Shown: one piece after another, positions 12,742 to 19,234 of the stretch
Numbering within the stretch: position 1 is the stretch's first letter
Layout of the letters: the number at the start of each line of letters is the position of its first letter
UHGV virus genome: UHGV-1599518
Strand: one strand, 5' to 3'
Source: a virus
DNA length: 19,234 nucleotides
Position numbers and translations under genes: made by a program
The notes under the pieces: generated by a model
Databases searched by the model: none
What the model saw: the letters and a program-made list of their open reading frames with translations, nothing else
What the model was told of the DNA's origin: nothing

Positions 12742-13128
12742 ATGTCTGATAACAAGATTGAATTTATAGAAAGTCGCTACGCTGCTTTTATCGCAGGGTT
12801 GATTGAATCCTCACCTATGAGCCAGGCCCAGATAGCCAAAACAATTGGGTATAAAAACGCCAACAACCTTTCTTTAATTAAAAGCGGCAAAATTCCTTTG
12901 CCTATCGATAAGGTTCGTCCGCTGGCGCTGGCACTGGGCATTGAGCCAAGTCGTCTTATGATGATGGTGCTGGAAGAACGCCAACCCGAACTCGCAGCAT
13001 TTTTATACAAAGAAGGCACTGCTCCTCTTAACGAGGACGAAAAACAGGTTCTTGCTGCATATAACGAGCGATTCGGTAAAGAGAAAGGCGCATCACAAAA
13101 GGTTGTTGAGGCCATAAAGTCTCTATGA
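12742..13128 (+). CDS. XRE-family helix-turn-helix transcriptional regulator
   Basis: HTH segment MSQAQIAKTIGYKNANNLSLIKSGKIPLPIDKVRPLALALGIEP. ATG 12742 with SD AAAGG. The 3' end overlaps the convergent integrase gene by 6 nt. Confidence 0.75.
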   Translation: MSDNKIEFIESRYAAFIAGLIESSPMSQAQIAKTIGYKNANNLSLIKSGKIPLPIDKVRPLALALGIEPSRLMMMVLEERQPELAAFLYKEGTAPLNEDEKQVLAAYNERFGKEKGASQKVVEAIKSL

Positions 13129-14226
13129 AAAATTTACACGAATAAGCTCTGTTGATAGACGATCTCCCTTAAATTTGTGGTCAATTTCGTCTAAATCCGG
13201 TTGCTCTACGATTGATGCGATGTACGTCGAGAAACTTTCTAAGGCGTCTCGCATCTCGTCCATATAATCGTGCCGGTCGTAGACCCGATCTATCCCCTCA
13301 AGACTGTGGTTCATGATTTTACGTGATACCTCCTGGCTTATGCCTAATGCTGGGAAGTAACTACGCGCAGTACGGCGCAAATCTCGGGGTGTAAATGGCT
13401 CAAGCTCCATCAGTTCTGGTCGTTCCAGAATACGACGTAATGCCTGGGCTATTGCCACTTTAGACATAGGAAGGTCTTTCCCGATTTTTTTATTCGAAGG
13501 CACGAGCCACTGGCTGTCTTTACCATATTCGAACAACTCTTCAATACAAGTGCGCATTAATGAGCTTAAAGGCAGAGAATGCTCACGGGCAGATTTGTTC
13601 CTCTTGCCTTGATTCCAAACCCCACGCTTAAGATTGAACTCACTTTTTTTAGCCCGCAGTACTTCGTCAGGTCGTCTTGCGGATACAAGACATAGCCTGG
13701 CCGCCCATTTTGTACCAGCACACACATTGAAGTAGTCCCATATATTCCAGAACACCCATACCTCTGCGTCGGTCAGCTTCCGCTCGCGAGGTGTGGGCTT
13801 TGCGCCACCGGCAACTTTGTTAAGTGACATATCGTTTAACGGTGACACGTCTATCATCCCCTGGAAGGCGCACCAGCTAAGGAACTGCTTCATCAGAGAG
13901 AAAACGCGGCGGCCCATAACAATTTTGCCATCCAGTATTAGTGGGTTGACCAGTTGGTTCACCATGAACCTATTAATGTCACTTACTTTTACATCGGCAA
14001 TGTGCGGCAAAACATGTATCAAAATACAATGAACAGCGATCTCTGGCCGACGTCTGGTTATCAGCAGAGATAAGCGAGTGAATAACATGAATGCGTCCGA
14101 GAATCTCATGTCATTGCTGACCTGGGAGATCATAACGGCCTGCATTTGAGATGCTCTTTCGAGATACTCTATCGCCTCTTTTGAGGTGTTCTCCGCAGCG
14201 CGTGCGCTGTCAAAGCTATTTTTCAT
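13123..14226 (-). CDS. int: tyrosine recombinase / phage-type integrase
   Basis: Catalytic-domain blocks LVSARRPDEV (Arg), HSLPL, FTPRDLRRTARSY and NHSLEGIDRVYDRHDY (His...Tyr) match the tyrosine recombinase R-H-R-Y active-site layout. Confidence 0.85.
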   Translation of the reverse strand: MKNSFDSARAAENTSKEAIEYLERASQMQAVMISQVSNDMRFSDAFMLFTRLSLLITRRRPEIAVHCILIHVLPHIADVKVSDINRFMVNQLVNPLILDGKIVMGRRVFSLMKQFLSWCAFQGMIDVSPLNDMSLNKVAGGAKPTPRERKLTDAEVWVFWNIWDYFNVCAGTKWAARLCLVSARRPDEVLRAKKSEFNLKRGVWNQGKRNKSAREHSLPLSSLMRTCIEELFEYGKDSQWLVPSNKKIGKDLPMSKVAIAQALRRILERPELMELEPFTPRDLRRTARSYFPALGISQEVSRKIMNHSLEGIDRVYDRHDYMDEMRDALESFSTYIASIVEQPDLDEIDHKFKGDRLSTELIRVNFS

Positions 14227-14404
14227 ATGACAATCACCGAGTTACGCCGATGCACTGTATAAGTAAACAGTATATTAGGCATAGATTCTTATAGGATCAA
14301 GAGTAAAAGTAACTCATTTTCAGCAATGATTCCATACATAGTAGGTATGGAATCATTTTGACGTTGTTTTTTGAATTTTAAGGGAAATGGGAGTGAGTTT
14401 GGTG

Positions 14405-14432
14405 GGAATAAAAACGGCTCCTGTGAGCCGTT
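14405..14432 (-). terminator. Rho-independent terminator for the glutaredoxin gene
   Basis: Minus strand: stop TGA, then stem AACGGCTC / GAGCCGTT with loop ACAG, followed by TTTATTCCC. Confidence 0.55.
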
Positions 14433-14436
14433 AAAA

Positions 14437-14682
14437 TCAGAGGGTGCTGACGTATGCAGCCAGTTCTGTGTATCCGCCAATCGGCTGGCCATCGATCAGC
14501 ACCTGGGGGATAGTCTCTACCGGTTTACCAACAATTTCACTTAGTTTTTCCTTGTCGATACCGGCAGTGGTGATGTCGATGTACTCATAATCACCGTTGC
14601 CATGTCCCTTTAGTTGCTTCGCCAGCTCGACCGCACGTTTGCAGTATGAGCAGTTATCTCGTCCGTAGATAGTGATCGTCAT
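14437..14682 (-). CDS. glutaredoxin (GrxA/NrdC-like), active site CSYC
   Basis: MTITIYGRDNCSYCKRAVELAK...GKPVETIPQVLIDGQPIGGYTELAAYV closely parallels E. coli glutaredoxin 1 (GKPVETVPQIFIDQQHIGGYTDFAAWV, from memory). CxxC motif is CSYC. Confidence 0.9.
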   Translation of the reverse strand: MTITIYGRDNCSYCKRAVELAKQLKGHGNGDYEYIDITTAGIDKEKLSEIVGKPVETIPQVLIDGQPIGGYTELAAYVSTL

Positions 14683-14855
14683 AACTTAACAAATACCTTT
14701 ATAAATATTGATTCGAACATATCAGACTATACTACAAACAGATTTTTTTGATAAGTATGTAGTAACTTATTGATTGACTAGTAAACAATTGAAGTGATTA
14801 CGACAATAGATTACAGTAAGGATTGCCTTGAAATGTACATTTTATAGAGGTTTTA

Positions 14856-15764
14856 ATGATTGGTAAGTTGTCTGATTCTTTGATTGAAAATAAATACAAC
14901 GAATTTAGAGAAGAAATATCTTTACTTTTTGATTATTTAAATCAGATAAATGATACAACAAAGAAAAATATAAAACGTCTTCTTAAAGAAGTGGAGTATG
15001 CACAGAATCCAGATACTATTATTAATATTAATGAAACTATTAAGATTAAGTGTGGCACAACGTTAGCTCGCCATTTATGTTCAAACCCATATACAGGTTC
15101 AACATTAGAGATAGGTAACAGCGCCATTGATTTAGAAGAAAAGATAAGATTGTGTAATACTTTGAAAAATAAACAATATCAGTGGGTTATTACTGAAGCC
15201 TATGAGTTACTGGAAGACTATATTGAGGCAATATATGTCTATACTGTATGTGTTCGAAATGATTTATGGTCCTCAAGTGATTTTGGTAAGGTTGAAGATG
15301 ATGAAATTGGGAAAAGGGAAGTTTATTACAGATTATTAAAAGCAAAAAGTAACCCATCGAAAAAAATAACTAAAATTTTCAGAAATAAAATACCTGGCTT
15401 CAAAGAGATAGAAACAAACAACAAGATTGGCAAAAACTATCGCTTTAACATCAAGCTAATTGAACTACTAAGACATACAATAGTACACAATAGTGGACGA
15501 TTCAATGATACAGAAAAATTTATAAATAAGGTTTTAGATGAATCTGAAATAAACGGTAAGAAAAGAGTTATTGGAGAAAGAGCTGTTAGAAGTTACATTA
15601 CTAAAGTGCAAGAAGATGATATTGTGATGCTCTTAGAAAGACCATCTGAAATTTTAGGTTCTTTTGGTGGGTATTTTAACAGAGCAAAATTTTTACTAAG
15701 TGATATTTTAGAATACTCACTAATCATTAAAGAAGAACTAAAATCATATCTAGGCAATCATTAA
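14856..15764 (+). CDS. AT-rich hypothetical protein (302 aa) with HEPN-like Rx4H motif; candidate Abi-like RNase
   Basis: ATG 14856 with SD AGAGG 5 nt upstream and its own terminator. By eye ~25-30% G+C against ~50% for neighbours. Lys/Asn/Ile-rich; motif ELLRHTIVHNSG fits the HEPN R-[NHQ]-x3-H signature. Opposite strand to both neighbours. Confidence 0.7.
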   Translation: MIGKLSDSLIENKYNEFREEISLLFDYLNQINDTTKKNIKRLLKEVEYAQNPDTIININETIKIKCGTTLARHLCSNPYTGSTLEIGNSAIDLEEKIRLCNTLKNKQYQWVITEAYELLEDYIEAIYVYTVCVRNDLWSSSDFGKVEDDEIGKREVYYRLLKAKSNPSKKITKIFRNKIPGFKEIETNNKIGKNYRFNIKLIELLRHTIVHNSGRFNDTEKFINKVLDESEINGKKRVIGERAVRSYITKVQEDDIVMLLERPSEILGSFGGYFNRAKFLLSDILEYSLIIKEELKSYLGNH

Positions 15765-15765
15765 C

Positions 15766-15795
15766 AAAAAAGGGGCCGAAGCCCCTTTGGATTTT
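15766..15795. terminator. bidirectional Rho-independent terminator
   Basis: AAAAAA-AGGGGC-CGAA-GCCCCT-TTGGATTTT, with A-run and T-run flanks; serves the AT-rich gene (plus) and the tRNA operon trailer (minus). Confidence 0.65.
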
Positions 15796-15864
15796 GCGCT
15801 TAAAAAAGTGTTGCTAGGATGTTAGCAAGCTATATGGTTAAGAACGTCTGCCGTAATTGTCTAT

Positions 15865-15942
15865 CACAGCGTTGAGCGGTCTGGTTTATGTTAGCGGAGT
15901 CTTAATCGAGTTGATTAAAAGGCCAAACCGCTCAACGCTGTG
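15865..15942. other. long stem-loop element (20-bp stem, one mismatch, 38-nt loop) 2 nt beyond the tRNA-Ser 3' end
   Basis: 5' arm CACAGCGTTGAGCGGTCTGG (15865..15884) pairs with CCAAACCGCTCAACGCTGTG (15923..15942). Strand of any RNA product not determined; the tRNA operon is minus. Confidence 0.4.
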
Positions 15943-15944
15943 TC

Positions 15945-16031
15945 TGGCGGAGAGTAATGGAATCGAACCATCATCGTTTGCACAATGGGACGGTTTTCAA
16001 GACCGCTTGAGCACCATGCTCCCTACTCTCC
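15945..16031 (-). tRNA. tRNA-Ser (anticodon UGA), class II with long variable arm
   Basis: Minus-strand sequence GGAGAGT...ACTCTCC-G-CCA: 7-bp acceptor stem, anticodon stem GCGGT/ACCGT with loop CTTGAAA, 17-nt variable arm, T-arm GATGG-TTCGATT-CCATT, encoded CCA. Manual fold, no tRNAscan run. Confidence 0.85.
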
Positions 16032-16131
16032 AGCTATTGTGATGGTCGGTACTGAACTCCGACACAGGGTTGTAGCAAGCCCCGCAAAGCGCGCACTACT
16101 GTAGTTGCGGCACATCAGCCTGTGCATTCAT

Positions 16132-16216
16132 CACAACGGTAAGATCACTACCTTTCGACCAGTCATTGTGCACATGAACGACGATTAACCGTAATGATAT
16201 TATCGTTGTGTTGTGA
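16132..16216. other. long imperfect inverted-repeat element A (paralogue of element B)
   Basis: 5' arm CACAACGGTAAGATCACTAC versus 3' arm GTAATGATATTATCGTTGTG (3 mismatches/wobbles). Shares the 5' 14-mer TCACAACGGTAAGA with element B. Confidence 0.3.
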
Positions 16217-16261
16217 AGCCAGATGCTTATCTTCTGGTTGCTTCAAAGAGCTGCACTTCCT

Positions 16262-16350
16262 CACAACGGTAAGAGCACTGGTCTGACTCTATCGATTTAC
16301 GGCCTTGTGGGTCAGTATCGCCGATTCGCCCAATGCTCTTACCTGTTGTG
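16262..16350. other. long inverted-repeat element B, abutting the tRNA-Thr 3' end
   Basis: 5' arm CACAACGGTAAGAGCA pairs with 3' arm TGCTCTTACCTGTTGTG (16 bp with one bulged A), enclosing ~56 nt. Ends 1 nt from the tRNA-Thr 3' end. Confidence 0.35.
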
Positions 16351-16351
16351 T

Positions 16352-16427
16352 TGGTGCCGGTTAACGGACTTGAACCGCTGGCCATTCGCTTACAAAGCGA
16401 CTGCTCTACCAACTGAGCTAAACCGGC
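16352..16427 (-). tRNA. tRNA-Thr (anticodon UGU)
   Basis: Minus-strand GCCGGTTTAGCTCAGTTGGTAGAGCAGTCGCTTTGTAAGCGAATGGCCAGCGGTTCAAGTCCGTTAACCGGCACCA: canonical 76-nt cloverleaf, anticodon loop TTTGTAA, T-loop TTCAAGT, encoded CCA. Anticodon stem has one G-A mismatch (27-43). Confidence 0.85.
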
Positions 16428-16431
16428 AATT

Positions 16432-16518
16432 TGGTGGGGAGTGATGGAGTCGAACCACCCGAGTCGCCATGACAGTAGATTTACAGTCTACACCGCTACC
16501 TCTACGGACTAACTCCCC
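16432..16518 (-). tRNA. tRNA-Tyr (anticodon GUA), class II with long variable arm
   Basis: Minus-strand GGGGAGT...ACTCCCC-A-CCA: anticodon arm GTAGA-CTGTAAA-TCTAC, T-arm GGTGG-TTCGACT-CCATC, long variable arm. Separated from tRNA-Thr by 4 nt. Confidence 0.85.
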
Positions 16519-16523
16519 TAAAT

Positions 16524-16561
16524 GGGGTTTGAGGGCCAATGGAACGAAAACGTACGCTAAG
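16524..16561. repeat. 38-bp terminal inverted repeat of a Tn3-family transposon (Tn1000/gamma-delta-like)
   Basis: GGGGTTTGAGGGCCAATGGAACGAAAACGTACGCTAAG has the GGGG outer end and TGGAACGAAAAC core typical of Tn3-family IRs (from memory). The tnpA stop codon lies inside it. Confidence 0.85.
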
Positions 16562-19234
16562 AAGTTAATTCATTGTTTAAATTGAAATTTAGTTCTCTCA
16601 GTTCCCCCTTCAAAATATCCTCCGGTAGCGTAAACGTATAATGCCCCAGCATATTGATATGCCCGTGCATCAGTGGGGACAACCGGGCGATATCTTCAAC
16701 CCCGATTTCTTCTCCATTACTGCGTATCCAGCTCAGGGCTTCCTGCATATAAAGTGTGTTCCACAGTACCACTGCGTTAGTGACCAGGCCCAGTGCCCCC
16801 AGCTGATCTTCCTGACCTTCACGATAGCGCTTTCTGATCTCACCGCGCTGCCCGTAGCAGATCGCCCTCGCCACAGCATGGCGGCCTTCCCCCCGGTTTA
16901 GCTGCGTCAGGATCCGCCGACGATAATCCTCATCATCAATATAATTAAGAAGGTACAGCGTCTTGTTGACGCGCCCCACTTCCATGATCGCCTGTGCCAG
17001 CCCTGATGGGCGCGAGCTTTTCAGCAAAGAGCGAATGAGTTCTGAAGCATGAATGGTGCCCAGTTTCAGCGAACCGGCGGTTCGCATCATCTCATCCCAC
17101 TGATCCTCGGCTTTCGACAGATCGGCACAACCACGTGCCAGTTCGTCCAGTGCACCGTAATTTGCCGATTTATCCACTCGCCAGAATACCGCTTCACCGG
17201 CATCGGCAAGCCGGGGGGAAAACTGGTATCCCAGCAGCCAGAAGAGGCCAAAAATAATGTCGCTGGTACCGGCTGTGTCTGTCATGATCTCAACCGGATT
17301 CAGCCCTGTCTGCTGCTCCAGAAGGCCTTCCAGCACAAAAATGGAATCTCGTAATGTGCCGGGGACAACGATGCCGTGGAATCCAGAGTACTGATCAGAG
17401 ACGAAGTTGTACCAGGTGATGCCACGTCCGGAACCAAAATATTTTCTGTTAGGTCCTGAATTGACGGTTTTCACCGGCGTGACAAAGCGCATGCCATCAG
17501 CTGAAGCCACTTCGCCACCACCCCAGCGGCCAGCAAGCTCCAGTGTGGACTGAAAATCAACCAGGCGGGCATTGGCGCTGACCAGCGTTTCTGCCCGGAG
17601 GTAATTCTGTTTTACCCAGCTAAGCCGGTGGCGCGTCAGCGCCGGTATATTGTGCTTTATCAGCGGTTCCAGCCCGATATTGCAGGCCTCTGCCATCAGG
17701 ACCGCGCACAGGCTGATGTGCAGATCCTGTGCCCGGGCCCCGGATTCACTGACATGCGTAAACTCACGTGTAAATCCCGTTCTGGCATCTATTTCAAGCA
17801 ACAGTTCCGTCAAATCTACTGGCGGGAGTAGCAGCCTTACCCGACTGTTGAGACGATGCAACGATGGTGGCTCCTCCAGTTTCTCCAGGCTGCTGATAGT
17901 CAGGGAAGGATGTTTACCGTCATGGCAAATATGAACCTCCGCATTTCCTTCAAAGCGGGATGCGACGGTTTTCCAGGTTTCATCTAGCTGGACCGCCAAC
18001 TGTTGCACGCCTTTATGTCCATCAGTGGGATGTCCCAGCGCCCGGCAAACGGGGACCCGCTGAGCCTGCCATTCTTCCCCCTGCAACAGCTTCTCGCGGG
18101 GATTTCCCCAGCGATCGCTGTTTTCGAGCCAGATGTCCCTTCGACGTAGTGCATCCTGAAGGCGCTCCAGCAGACAAAGCGAGTAACCGGCACGCTGTAT
18201 CCGGCCCTCCGCATCGTATACCAGGCGTTTCCAGGGGCCGGTAATAATATGTTCAGGCGCATTGTCCAGGATGCGCTTTTTCGAGCCGTTCAGTTCGGTC
18301 AGATAATGAATGGCGGACAACGTATGTTCTCCGGCTGGCGCTGCCTGGAAATGCAGGTCGCGCAATACCGCCGGAAGAAAGCGCTTTACCCGCCCGTACT
18401 GCTCCACCATTTCGTCATGGAAATTGTTGTTCTGAGGCCGGGCCAGCTCATTTACCTTGCTGACGGATTCTGCCAGCCTGCTTTTCGGTATGCTGTTGAA
18501 TATGGTCTCCCTCAGTTCAGCATCGTCAGCCTGTTCATCCAGCAACAATGAACATGCCCGCGCCAATATTAGCGCAGCACGATCAAGATCTTTAAGCGTC
18601 CTGAGCCGTTTTTTCTGCCCCGTTTTCTTCGCCGCACGAGTGATATCCAGTATCAGCATATCGAGCACATCAACGGCCTCATCCAGCGCCGCAGTCTCCT
18701 GCGCTTTAACGAATGCTGTGAGTACGGCCAGTTTTCTCTGCTGTGGCATTCGCGCGATATATTTTACCGACGCCATGCCTGCGTAACGGGCCAAATTACG
18801 CAGTTGTATAGCAGGCAGACCGGTAAAATTCAGTCGGGAAAATTCCAGGTTTCGCAGCCGGATATATCGCTCCAGCGCTTCGGTAAATGCCGGGCCGCTG
18901 ACGGTGACCGGTCCCTTTTTCAGTTGCTCCAGCGGTGAAGTACGCTGCCCCTCAGGAATGTCCAGAAGCTCCGTCACGCGGGCGGTCTGCCAGCTGTCCG
19001 GCAACGCGGCCAGTTTCTTCCACAGCCGCTGATTTGCCCGTTCGCGTATTTCACTGACGAGACGTACAAGTGTGGTTGCTCCGGGCAGCAGGACCTTATT
19101 CTGAAGCAGCCACGCGGTGGCAAAATCAAACATAAGGCCGGGTCGCTCATTACTGAGCCATGCGCGGGTGTACAGCAGGCGCTTCAGGCGGAAAGACCAG
19201 GGGAAATCGCCAAATTCATGGTAACCGTAATATT
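16557..19234 (-). CDS. tnpA: Tn3-family transposase TnpA (C-terminal ~890 aa; N-terminus beyond the right window edge)
   Basis: ORF-track 858-aa ORF 16557..19133, and the frame stays open upstream to the window edge (…YHEFGDFPWSFRLKRLLYTRAWLSNERPGL before the track's Met). Blocks such as GGGEVASADGMRFVTPV, GITWYNFVSDQYSGFHGIVVPGTLRDSIFVLEGLLEQ and LYLLNYIDDEDYRRRILTQLNRGE are characteristic of Tn3-family TnpA. Confidence 0.95.
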   Translation of the reverse strand, partial: YYGYHEFGDFPWSFRLKRLLYTRAWLSNERPGLMFDFATAWLLQNKVLLPGATTLVRLVSEIRERANQRLWKKLAALPDSWQTARVTELLDIPEGQRTSPLEQLKKGPVTVSGPAFTEALERYIRLRNLEFSRLNFTGLPAIQLRNLARYAGMASVKYIARMPQQRKLAVLTAFVKAQETAALDEAVDVLDMLILDITRAAKKTGQKKRLRTLKDLDRAALILARACSLLLDEQADDAELRETIFNSIPKSRLAESVSKVNELARPQNNNFHDEMVEQYGRVKRFLPAVLRDLHFQAAPAGEHTLSAIHYLTELNGSKKRILDNAPEHIITGPWKRLVYDAEGRIQRAGYSLCLLERLQDALRRRDIWLENSDRWGNPREKLLQGEEWQAQRVPVCRALGHPTDGHKGVQQLAVQLDETWKTVASRFEGNAEVHICHDGKHPSLTISSLEKLEEPPSLHRLNSRVRLLLPPVDLTELLLEIDARTGFTREFTHVSESGARAQDLHISLCAVLMAEACNIGLEPLIKHNIPALTRHRLSWVKQNYLRAETLVSANARLVDFQSTLELAGRWGGGEVASADGMRFVTPVKTVNSGPNRKYFGSGRGITWYNFVSDQYSGFHGIVVPGTLRDSIFVLEGLLEQQTGLNPVEIMTDTAGTSDIIFGLFWLLGYQFSPRLADAGEAVFWRVDKSANYGALDELARGCADLSKAEDQWDEMMRTAGSLKLGTIHASELIRSLLKSSRPSGLAQAIMEVGRVNKTLYLLNYIDDEDYRRRILTQLNRGEGRHAVARAICYGQRGEIRKRYREGQEDQLGALGLVTNAVVLWNTLYMQEALSWIRSNGEEIGVEDIARLSPLMHGHINMLGHYTFTLPEDILKGELRELNFNLNNELTS

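What the first reader, a model, noticed from the sequence alone, without database searches (positions are those of the whole stretch)
14683..15800. AT-rich stand-alone gene encoding a HEPN-motif protein, wedged between the glutaredoxin gene and the tRNA cluster
The 302-aa ORF at 14856..15764 is compositionally foreign (by eye ~25-30% G+C against ~50% around it), has its own SD and terminator, and runs opposite to both neighbours: the signature of a recently acquired cargo gene. Its only recognisable motif is ELLRHTIVHNSG, which fits the HEPN R-[NHQ]-x3-H ribonuclease signature found in Abi, anticodon-nuclease and toxin families. No partner gene is evident, so it may be a single-gene abortive-infection or exclusion factor. 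Its position beside an element-encoded tRNA set suggests a tRNA-directed nuclease whose damage the element's own tRNAs could bypass. That last link is speculation.
Basis: partly seen in the sequence, partly recalled or inferred. Interest (0 to 1): 0.75.

Follow-up and report, generated by a model that had tools for sequence, protein, structure and literature searches.

The report
Unannotated solo HEPN nuclease-like gene
This is a real, AT-rich, stand-alone gene in a swappable slot of an E. coli phage-plasmid; it encodes a member of a widespread, unnamed protein family with the fold and catalytic motif of HEPN RNA-cutting enzymes, most likely a one-gene anti-phage or exclusion factor, though nothing ties it to the neighbouring tRNA genes.

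Summary
ORF 14856..15764 (+, 302 aa) has 29% G+C against 48% for the rest of the window, and it runs against both neighbours. The window is an SSU5-like E. coli phage-plasmid, 99% identical to pECOH89 in the 1.7 kb compared.

No neighbouring gene is conserved across 38 loci. Neighbours often include defence genes, and some copies are integron cassettes. In phage-plasmids the gene sits in an accessory hotspot as discrete alleles inside 98-100% identical flanks.

The tRNA link is not supported. The tRNA cluster is backbone, and tRNA-Tyr occurs in 244 plasmids against 58 that carry the gene family.

Verdict: a new member of a known kind, probably a solo HEPN RNase acting in abortive infection or exclusion. 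No activity has been tested.

The parts
14699..15765 (+). Exchangeable, compositionally distinct module: the upstream intergenic region plus the gene.
   Evidence: This stretch is only 59-76% identical in nucleotides to E. marmotae plasmid CP072690 (rising to 84% in the last 100-nt block, 15697-15795), while the flanks 13100-14698 and 15796-16494 are 92-100% identical, mostly 98-100%. The module has 28.8% G+C. E. coli complete genomes hold two discrete allele classes, >=99% (19 genomes) and about 69% nucleotide identity (11 genomes), with none in between.
14683..14855 (+). AT-rich intergenic region (26% G+C) between the divergent grxA gene and the ORF, with Shine-Dalgarno AGAGG at 14846-14850.
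   Evidence: Read from the sequence; G+C. The scan detected no consensus sigma-70 promoter on the + strand. No tandem repeats or Rfam RNA were found that could act as an RNA antitoxin.
14856..15764 (+). Coding sequence of a 302-aa protein, predicted to be a single expanded HEPN-type helical domain.
15204..15206 (+). Codon for E117, the invariant acidic residue in the long helix 93-133, inferred to be HEPN helix 2.
   Evidence: E117 is invariant in 88 members. HEPN domains typically have a conserved acidic residue in helix 2, close to the Rx4-6H motif (PMC3710099).
15471..15488 (+). Codons for R206-H207-T-I-V-H211, the Rx4H motif and predicted RNase active site.
   Evidence: R206 and H211 are invariant; H207, V210 and G214 are at least 90% conserved. 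The motif lies at the C-terminal end of helix 195-212, just before a loop. That is the position given for HEPN helix 3.
15769..15788 (.). GC-rich hairpin (AAAGGGGC-CGAA-GCCCCTTT), a terminator-like backbone element lying between the converging ORF and the tRNA operon.
   Evidence: The scan calls it terminator-like on the - strand. It is identical in pECOH89 and in CP072690, which carries the divergent allele.
14437..14682 (-). Left backbone flank: grxA, a GrxA-family glutaredoxin gene.
   Evidence: ORF; RefSeq annotation of pECOH89.
15945..16518 (-). Right backbone flank: the phage-plasmid tRNA cluster (Ser-UGA, Thr-UGU, Tyr-GUA).
   Evidence: ARAGORN and Rfam. The cluster is present in relatives with and without the gene.

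Best explanation
The gene encodes a member of a widespread, so far unnamed family of stand-alone HEPN-superfamily proteins of about 300 aa. The whole protein is inferred to be one expanded HEPN four-helix bundle:
- helix 1: residues 2-50;
- a beta-hairpin insert: 69-91;
- helix 2: 93-133, carrying the invariant E117;
- a helical insert;
- helix 3: 195-212, ending in R206-H207-x3-H211;
- a small alpha/beta insert;
- helix 4: 276-301.

By analogy with characterised HEPN enzymes, two protomers would pair their Rx4H motifs into a metal-independent RNase site. That site would be kept inactive until a cue from an infecting phage or another invading element switches it on. RNA cleavage (tRNA, mRNA or rRNA; the target is unknown) would then arrest the cell. 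This protects the clonal host population and the resident phage-plasmid, i.e. single-gene abortive infection or superinfection exclusion.

In the phage-plasmid the gene is accessory cargo in the hotspot between the integrase/grxA genes and the tRNA cluster, where very divergent alleles and unrelated cargo replace one another.

Shown here: the gene is real; the family and its invariant residues; the predicted fold and the motif position; the lack of a conserved partner; the neighbourhoods; the allele replacement.

Inferred only: RNase activity, oligomerisation, the trigger, and the defence phenotype.
For: Family and catalytic-type conservation:
- 453 clusters at E<=1e-3 and 142 at E<=1e-30; nearly all of the 150 best listed are full-length, 280-320 aa.
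- E117, R206 and H211 are invariant. N105, Q107, W110, Y116, Y127, W138, E186, H207, V210 and G214 are at least 90% conserved in 88 members with 17-60% identity.

Fold:
- AlphaFold2 on that alignment gives pLDDT 94.8 and pTM 0.90.
- The motif position, the polar residue after R, the acidic residue in helix 2 and the insert between helices 2 and 3 all match the published HEPN definition.

Stand-alone:
- All-against-all BLAST of 353 neighbouring ORFs from 38 loci finds no neighbour shared beyond near-identical strains.
- In E. coli chromosomes a 32%-identical paralogue sits alone between tam and uxaB.

Conflict-type context:
- Immediate neighbours include PDC-S15/FRG, GajA, a type IIG restriction-modification enzyme whose stop overlaps the gene's start (L031), a type IV restriction enzyme, PD-Lambda-1, PD-T7-5, PDC-S13, PDC-S65/caspase and ToxN.
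- attC-like sites flank the gene in L020 (both sides, heuristic) and L017 (upstream by heuristic, downstream by eye).
- The gene is AT-richer than its flanks in 37 of 38 loci.

Hotspot in phage-plasmids:
- Alleles of 100, 56, 43 and 38% identity occupy the same position.
- Alternative cargo at or near the slot includes Gp49, PhoH, a CBASS-effector/SduA-like nuclease-domain protein, DUF6645/SASA, colicin M, a microcin and YafO.

Precedent: HepS of prophage Gifsy-1 is a solo HEPN abortive-infection anticodon nuclease with no partner gene (PMC13043305).
Against: - No sequence-level link to any described HEPN family. The best is DUF3644 at E=2.9 for this protein and 0.0065 in 4 of 88 members, no better than noise families such as ApoC-I.
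- PADLOC and NCBIfam give nothing. PDB sequence searches with the single protein and with the profile give no HEPN hit. Foldseek against PDB gives no significant hit.
- I could not inspect the superpositions or the model coordinates, so overlay of R206/H211 on known catalytic residues, and their proximity to E117, are not verified.
- E203, H207 and H211 fall on one helix face (i, i+4, i+8). That pattern would also suit a metal site.
- The acidic residue is not in the usual Ex3[K/R] form.
- The enrichment of defence genes among neighbours was not tested against a matched background.
- Only 9 related loci were found in 2.9 million viral contigs, so it is not a typical phage gene.
- There are no experimental data of any kind.
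Confidence: 0.55

Rival explanations
1. It is an addiction (post-segregational killing) toxin that stabilises the phage-plasmid. A HEPN RNase would be held in check by an antitoxin that was not recognised here, such as a small RNA, a tiny ORF or a host factor. Plasmid loss would release it.
For: - The top structural matches include HEPN toxins of HEPN/MNT toxin-antitoxin pairs (5yep, 7ae2, 8xdj).
- The element is a low-copy plasmid prophage, and the same region in relatives carries a YafO toxin.
Against: - There is no MNT gene or any other conserved neighbour in 38 loci.
- There are no repeats or Rfam RNA in the flanks.
- Chromosomal copies sit alone in core-genome context, where addiction makes little sense.
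- Only about one in ten related E. coli phage-plasmids carries the gene.
- Truncated copies exist (P0005, P0006, CP012114). The gene is therefore dispensable for maintenance.
Confidence: 0.1
2. It is a helical-bundle protein that is not an RNase. It could be a metal-binding or regulatory protein using E203/H207/H211 on one helix face, or a catalytically inert HEPN-like nucleic-acid binder in the manner of MtlR.
For: - No sequence profile links it to a nuclease family.
- MtlR, a regulatory HEPN relative, is among the hits.
- The i/i+4/i+8 spacing of E203, H207 and H211 suits metal ligation (read from the sequence).
Against: - The strictly invariant residues are R206, H211 and E117, the HEPN catalytic set. 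E203 is not among the residues conserved at 90% or more across the wide family.
- The motif sits at the helix end, as in active HEPNs.
- HEPN domains that have lost catalysis usually lose the motif (PMC3710099).
- The genomic contexts are those of conflict systems, not of metabolism.
Confidence: 0.15
3. It is a life-cycle or counter-defence function of the phage-plasmid itself. For example, it might shut off the host, process RNA during lytic growth, or act as a nuclease functionally paired with the adjacent element-encoded tRNAs.
For: - In every phage-plasmid lineage examined, the gene lies directly beside the tRNA cluster and converges on it.
[quoted passage not shown] The cluster here encodes Ser and Thr tRNAs.
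Against: - Most family members are chromosomal with no tRNA gene nearby: 35 of 38 loci have none within 8 kb.
- The tRNA cluster exists without the gene in phage Cyrano and in CP075723.
- tRNA-Tyr is in 244 plasmids, the gene family in 58.
- The tRNA sets next to the different alleles differ: Ser/Thr/Tyr/Asn, Ser/Asn, or Asn only.
- The gene is optional in the phage-plasmid backbone, so it is not a core life-cycle function.
Confidence: 0.1
4. It acts as a barrier against plasmids or other mobile elements rather than against phages, as reported for the HEPN-containing Ishtar proteins.
For: - Ishtar1 and Ishtar2 are single proteins with an N-terminal HEPN domain (DUF4145 or DUF3644) that block RP4 conjugation (bioRxiv 10.64898/2026.07.06.735840).
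- DUF3644 is the only Pfam family that this protein touches, and only weakly.
- The gene is carried by a plasmid-like element that competes with other plasmids.
Against: - The architecture differs. The Ishtar C-terminal beta-rich domain is absent, and the HEPN fold spans the whole protein.
- The DUF3644 match is far below threshold (7.9 bits against a cut-off of 27.6).
- No comparison with Ishtar sequences was possible.
Confidence: 0.1

Closest known systems
HepS, the solo HEPN abortive-infection protein of Salmonella prophage Gifsy-1 (PMC13043305)
   Same: - A single HEPN-type protein with a canonical Rx4H motif.
- Encoded by a temperate element in an accessory-gene position.
- No partner or immunity gene.
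- Found sporadically across distant bacteria.
   Different: - The motif is at residues 100-105 in HepS, against 206-211 in this 302-aa protein.
- The tetramer, the tail-tip trigger and the tRNA-Thr/Ile/Ser targets of HepS are experimental facts. Nothing equivalent is known here.
HEPN toxins of HEPN/MNT toxin-antitoxin pairs and minimal HEPN proteins (HI0074 1jog, SO_3166 5yep, AF0298 2hsb, 7ae2)
   Same: - They share the four-helix core, with Rx4H at the end of helix 3.
   Different: - They are 125-140 aa and are encoded next to a nucleotidyltransferase (MNT) antitoxin.
- This protein is 302 aa, with helices roughly twice as long, a beta-hairpin insert and an alpha/beta insert.
- No MNT gene lies beside it in any of 38 loci.
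DUF3644 / EC042_2821-type HEPN domains (HEC-08, Ishtar2)
   Same: - This is the only Pfam family touched. The weak match covers residues 182-223, around the RHxxxH motif.
- DUF3644 is classed as HEPN (PMC3710099) and occurs in single-protein defence genes.
   Different: - The match is far below the gathering score (7.9 against 27.6 bits). Only 4 of 88 members touch the family at all.
[quoted passage not shown] Neither is present here.
Lactococcal single-gene HEPN Abi proteins (AbiD/AbiF Abi_2, AbiJ, AbiU2, AbiV). That these are plasmid-borne is from my own knowledge, not tested here.
   Same: - Stand-alone, AT-rich genes carried on mobile elements.
- They encode helical proteins of 200-350 aa.
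- They are predicted to be HEPN RNases that act by abortive infection (classification in PMC3710099).
   Different: No match to Abi_2, HEPN_AbiU2, HEPN_AbiV or Abi_C models in Pfam or PADLOC.
PrrC/RloC anticodon nucleases
   Same: They have a HEPN-type catalytic motif and are established tRNA-cleaving defence enzymes.
   Different: They carry an N-terminal ABC-ATPase domain and are embedded in restriction-modification operons (PMC3710099). This protein has no ATPase domain.
Esos, a HEPN-only anti-phage cassette of the Vibrio cholerae chromosomal integron (bioRxiv 10.1101/2024.07.02.601686)
   Same: - A single gene with only a HEPN-like domain.
- Carried as an integron cassette, as some members of this family appear to be (L017, L020).

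Membership tests
HEPN superfamily (as defined in Anantharaman et al. 2013, PMC3710099) | Four-helix up-and-down bundle made of two alpha-hairpins | tested here: met
   [not shown]
HEPN superfamily | [quoted passage not shown] | tested here: met
   R206 and H211 are invariant in 88 members. They lie at the C-terminal end of helix 195-212 and are followed by the conserved G214 and a loop.
HEPN superfamily | Polar residue (N, D or H) immediately after the conserved arginine | tested here: met
   H207 is at least 90% conserved.
HEPN superfamily | Second conserved acidic residue in helix 2, typically in an Ex3[K/R] motif, lying close to the Rx4-6H motif | tested here: inconclusive
   E117 is invariant and lies in helix 93-133.
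HEPN superfamily | [quoted passage not shown] | tested here: met
   Residues 134-194 form several short helices between the two core helices.
HEPN superfamily | Metal-independent endoribonuclease activity through a composite dimeric active site | not testable with these tools
   This needs biochemistry or a multimer model.
Any Pfam HEPN family (DUF3644, HEPN_Apea, HEPN_RnaseLS, Abi_2, AbiU2, AbiV, RiboL-PSP and others) | Score at or above the family's gathering threshold | tested here: not met
   The best match is DUF3644 at 7.9 bits against a cut-off of 27.6. Among 88 members, DUF3644 is touched by 4 (best E 0.0065), HEPN_Apea by 1 (0.022) and HEPN_RnaseLS by 1 (0.033). The family consensus sequence hits nothing.
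Known or candidate defence systems in PADLOC-DB v2 (2023) | Match to a system protein model | tested here: not met
   0 families at E<=10. Later catalogues (DefenseFinder updates, HEC, Ishtar, HepS, Tha) could not be searched.
HEPN/MNT type II toxin-antitoxin | Adjacent minimal nucleotidyltransferase (MNT) antitoxin gene | tested here: not met
   The neighbours here are grxA and tRNA genes. No neighbour is conserved across 38 loci.
PrrC/RloC anticodon nucleases | N-terminal ABC-ATPase domain fused to the HEPN nuclease domain | tested here: not met
   No ATPase domain is found in Pfam or NCBIfam. The model is a single helical domain.
HepS family | Detectable homology to HepS (STM14_3211) | tested here: inconclusive
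   [not shown]
Integron gene cassette | A single promoterless ORF bounded by attC recombination sites | tested here: not met
   The attC heuristic was not run on the window copy. The general repeat scan of 14400-16100 shows no attC-like imperfect palindrome at the module ends, and the only downstream hairpin is a 20-nt terminator-like stem.

For distant homologues the feature is met. In L020, attC-like sites of 69 and 72 nt flank the gene. L017 lies in an array of repeated attC-like sites. These were detected with a home-made heuristic, not with IntegronFinder.

The most novel reading that the evidence does not exclude
The nuclease and the phage-plasmid's own tRNA cluster form a functional pair. 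The HEPN protein would be an anticodon nuclease that depletes host tRNAs when a competitor infects, or during the element's own lytic growth. The adjacent element-encoded tRNAs (Ser-UGA, Thr-UGU, Tyr-GUA, Asn-GUU) would be cleavage-resistant replacements, letting only the phage-plasmid keep translating. That would be a nuclease-plus-immune-tRNA exclusion system.

The evidence does not exclude this. In every phage-plasmid lineage examined the gene lies directly beside the cluster and converges on it. HepS shows that a solo HEPN can target Thr and Ser tRNAs.

The comparative data argue against an obligate coupling. The tRNA cluster is common without the gene, and the family is common without tRNA genes nearby.
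Probability: 0.06. Interest if true: 0.75.

Novelty: new member of a known kind. Interest (0 to 1): 0.42.

Why it matters
If it is confirmed as an RNase defence gene, three things follow.

- It would add a widespread family (453 clusters at 50% identity, in Proteobacteria, Bacteroidota, spirochaetes and Nitrospira) to the set of one-protein HEPN immune effectors. Current Pfam, NCBIfam and PADLOC models miss this family entirely.
- It marks the interval between the integrase and the tRNA cluster of SSU5-like phage-plasmids as a hotspot for defence and competition cargo. These elements spread CTX-M-15 and CMY-2 in E. coli and Klebsiella. Cargo that excludes phages or rival plasmids could influence which lineages persist and whether phage therapy works against their hosts.
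- The discrete, deeply divergent alleles inside nearly identical backbones give a natural series for mapping what such a sensor-effector recognises.

It would not change how HEPN systems are understood in principle.

Tried and rejected
Searches of the protein that gave nothing useful:
- Single-sequence scans of Pfam, PADLOC and NCBIfam found nothing usable. PHROGs gave only the protein's own family, of unknown function, plus a weak N-terminal coiled-coil hit to 'anti-restriction nuclease' (E 0.0027), which I treat as noise.
- PDB sequence searches with the protein and with the 88-member profile found no HEPN. The best hit was CmlS at E 0.008 over an unrelated stretch, judged spurious.
- Foldseek against PDB gave only helical-bundle noise.
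- The afdb50 fold library was not available.
- Scanning all 88 members, and then the family consensus, against Pfam to find a transitive link to a HEPN family failed. DUF3644 was touched by 4 of 88, the same count as ApoC-I.
- The word-indexed homologue search returned only 8-9 close relatives, even with the broad profile, because of its candidate cap. The exhaustive profile search was what revealed the family.

Searches for a partner or an antitoxin:
- All-against-all BLAST of 353 neighbouring ORFs found none shared.
- Rfam and Tandem Repeats Finder on 14200-16700 found only the tRNAs.
- Short antisense ORFs inside the gene (54-61 aa) are expected in AT-rich DNA and were not pursued.

Mobile-element boundaries:
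- No attC-like site or convincing terminal repeat was found around the window copy. One 19-nt, 84% inverted repeat (14817-14835 / 15745-15763) is probably chance in AT-rich sequence.

tRNA coupling:
- Checked through tRNA scans of 44 loci and through plasmid counts. Not supported.

Literature:
- No paper discusses this gene. The pECOH89 papers do not treat it, and the one SSU5/HEPN hit was a false match to an author's name. The Esos sequence was not retrievable.
Full report
**1. The observation**

- The ORF at 14856..15764 (+, 302 aa, ATG) exists as described.
- It has 29.2% G+C (GC3 22%) and its upstream intergenic region has 26%. The rest of the window has 47.8%; grxA has 50% and the integrase gene 47%.
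- With this base composition a stop codon is expected about every 11 codons. An open frame of 302 codons has probability about 1.6e-13, and the other five frames carry 12-44 stops.
- grxA (14437-14682) and the tRNA genes Ser-UGA, Thr-UGU and Tyr-GUA (15945-16518) are all on the - strand, so the ORF opposes both neighbours.
- AGAGG lies 5 nt before the ATG.
- The downstream hairpin 15769-15788 is real, but it belongs to the conserved backbone rather than to the gene.
- The scan found no consensus promoter on the + strand.

**2. What the window is**

- The 1.7-kb region around the gene (14400-16100) is 99% identical to pECOH89 and to many other non-mobilizable E. coli plasmids of about 110 kb, and to 'Escherichia phage CMS-2020a'. 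These are SSU5-like phage-plasmids.
- The backbone order is dnaE, AAA ATPase, CobT-like gene, HTH regulator, integrase, grxA, [slot], tRNA cluster, DNA ligase.
- In this window a Tn3-family transposon end sits where pECOH89 has tRNA-Asn.

**3. The slot is a hotspot and the gene is a replaceable module**

- Against E. marmotae plasmid CP072690, the flanks 13100-14698 and 15796-16494 are 92-100% identical (mostly 98-100%). The stretch 14699-15765 drops to 59-76%, rising to 84% in the last 100-nt block. The protein encoded there is 56% identical.
- E. coli complete genomes show two discrete allele classes, >=99% (19 genomes) and about 69% nucleotide identity (11 genomes). None is intermediate, all are on plasmids, and 30 of 5426 genomes carry the gene.
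- Klebsiella and Citrobacter phage-plasmids carry alleles of 38-43% identity at the same position and in the same orientation.
- Other relatives carry different cargo in the slot or in the wider integrase-tRNA interval:
  - Gp49;
  - PhoH plus Gp49;
  - a 261-aa protein with a CBASS-effector/SduA-like endonuclease domain;
  - a DUF6645/SASA protein;
  - colicin M, a microcin and a YafO toxin in the same interval.
- tRNA-Tyr marks 244 plasmids, while the gene family is found in 58. Roughly one related E. coli phage-plasmid in ten carries it.
- Truncated copies exist.

**4. The protein family**

- Pfam, NCBIfam, PADLOC and PDB sequence searches are negative. All source names are 'hypothetical protein'.
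- The word-indexed search saw only nine clusters.
- An exhaustive profile search of 1.84 billion representatives found 453 clusters at E<=1e-3 and 142 at E<=1e-30. Nearly all of the 150 best listed are full-length proteins of 280-320 aa.
- In an alignment of 88 members (17-60% identity to the query), E117, R206 and H211 are invariant. N105, Q107, W110, Y116, Y127, W138, E186, H207, V210 and G214 are at least 90% conserved.

**5. Fold**

- With 8 sequences AlphaFold2 gave pLDDT 78. With the 88-sequence alignment it gave pLDDT 94.8 and pTM 0.90.
- The elements are helix 2-50, beta-hairpin 69-91, helix 93-133, short helices 140-187, helix 195-212, helices 219-245, a small sheet 248-257 and helix 276-301.
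- Foldseek found nothing significant.
- The published HEPN definition (PMC3710099) has four elements:
  - Rx4-6H at the end of helix 3, running into the following loop;
  - a polar residue after R;
  - a conserved acidic residue in helix 2;
  - an insert between helices 2 and 3.
- All four map onto this model: R206-H211 at the end of helix 195-212, H207, E117 in helix 93-133, and residues 134-194. The acidic residue is not in the usual Ex3[K/R] form.
- I conclude that the whole protein is one expanded HEPN domain. My confidence is about 0.8. It rests on the motif, the topology and the recurrence of HEPN hits, not on any sequence-profile link. I could not inspect the superpositions.

**6. Context of homologues**

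- Thirty-nine loci from one-per-species genomes come from Lonsdalea, Undibacterium, Oceanospirillum, Variovorax, Collimonas, Sulfurimonas, Desulfobacterales, Geobacter, Bacteroidales, Treponema, Nitrospira and others.
- The gene is AT-richer than its flanks in 37 of 38 loci, with a mean difference of 11 points.
- No neighbour is conserved.
- Immediate neighbours include many defence proteins:
  - PDC-S15/FRG;
  - GajA;
  - a type IIG restriction-modification enzyme whose stop overlaps the gene's start;
  - a type IV restriction enzyme;
  - PD-Lambda-1, PD-T7-5 and PDC-S13;
  - PDC-S65/caspase;
  - ToxN.
  Integrases and prophage genes are also among the neighbours. I did not compare this with a matched background.
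- In L020, attC-like sites of 69 and 72 nt flank the gene. L017 lies in an array of repeated attC-like sites. Some members are therefore integron cassettes.
- A 32%-identical paralogue sits alone between tam and uxaB in some E. coli chromosomes.
- Only 9 loci were found in IMG/VR, three of them SSU5-like.

**7. The tRNA idea**

- tRNA genes lie within 8 kb only in the phage-plasmids and in 3 of 38 chromosomal loci. In those three they look like island insertion sites.
- The cluster is present without the gene in phage Cyrano and in CP075723.
- The tRNA sets beside the different alleles differ.
- The adjacency is therefore explained by shared synteny of a hotspot. A functional link is not excluded, but nothing found here supports it.

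**8. Mechanism and classification**

- The best reading is a single-protein HEPN RNase that is held inactive until an invader-derived cue activates it, so that it works by abortive infection or exclusion.
- The closest functional precedent is HepS (PMC13043305). The closest structural matches are the minimal HEPN proteins and HEPN/MNT toxins. The only Pfam family touched is DUF3644, far below threshold.
- It fails the membership tests for every named HEPN family, for HEPN/MNT pairs and for PrrC/RloC. It meets the superfamily-level structural and motif criteria.
- I therefore file it as a new, undescribed family within a known kind.
- RNase activity, oligomeric state, trigger, target and phenotype are all inferred.

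**9. Scores**

- Interest is 0.42. It is a solid, testable candidate defence gene in a clinically relevant mobile element, and it belongs to a large family that current models do not cover. A further solo HEPN effector would not surprise a specialist.

Noticed in passing
window 16524-16561 and 16557-19133: A Tn3-family terminal inverted repeat (GGGGTTTGAGGGCCAATGGAACGAAAACGTACGCTAAG) starts 5 nt after tRNA-Tyr. An 858-aa transposase ORF on the - strand ends inside it. In pECOH89 and CP072690 this position holds tRNA-Asn(GUU). The transposon has therefore displaced or destroyed that tRNA gene in this element.
   Followed up: partly
window 16032-16351: There is a 320-nt spacer between tRNA-Ser and tRNA-Thr. 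It contains two copies of a CACAACGGTAAGA(T/G)CACT motif. It is conserved in pECOH89 and CP072690 and also present in CP075723 (321 nt), but absent from phage Cyrano, where Ser and Thr are 8 nt apart. No tRNA or Rfam family was detected in it.
   Followed up: no
window 15865-15942: A strong hairpin (20-nt arms, 95% complementary, 38-nt loop) lies just beyond the 3' end of tRNA-Ser on the - strand. It is conserved in relatives and may be a processing or termination structure of the tRNA operon.
   Followed up: no
L010/L012 1-5000; L053 1-4000; L055 1475-3388; L056 1942-3343: The interval between the integrase and the tRNA cluster of SSU5-like phage-plasmids holds very different accessory cargo in different elements:
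- colicin M, a microcin-like gene and a YafO toxin;
- PhoH plus Gp49;
- a TolA-like gene and an ars operon;
- a DUF6645/SASA esterase protein that replaces grxA;
- a 261-aa protein with a CBASS-effector/SduA-like endonuclease domain.

   Followed up: partly
L020 4483-5482; L017 667-2331 and the array up to 5254: Distant family members in a Gallionellaceae MAG and a Granulosicoccus genome are flanked by attC-like imperfect palindromes. They sit in arrays of small co-oriented ORFs, so they look like integron cassettes.
   Followed up: partly
L066-L069 10001-10927: Some E. coli chromosomes carry a 308-aa paralogue (about 32% identical) as a solitary insertion between tam (with yneE partly lost) and uxaB, next to the lsr operon. 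There are no mobility genes nearby.
   Followed up: no
P0005, P0006; plasmid CP012114.1 42849-43752: Truncated (172-173 aa) or frameshifted copies of the gene occur in some E. coli phage-plasmids. The gene can therefore decay and is dispensable.
   Followed up: no
L005-L007 1114-3046: In a Thermodesulfobacteriota MAG, the 30%-identical homologue P0008 lies at a recurrent contig end and converges on a 562-aa protein. That protein has no Pfam domain and only a weak PADLOC PDC-M28C match.
   Followed up: partly
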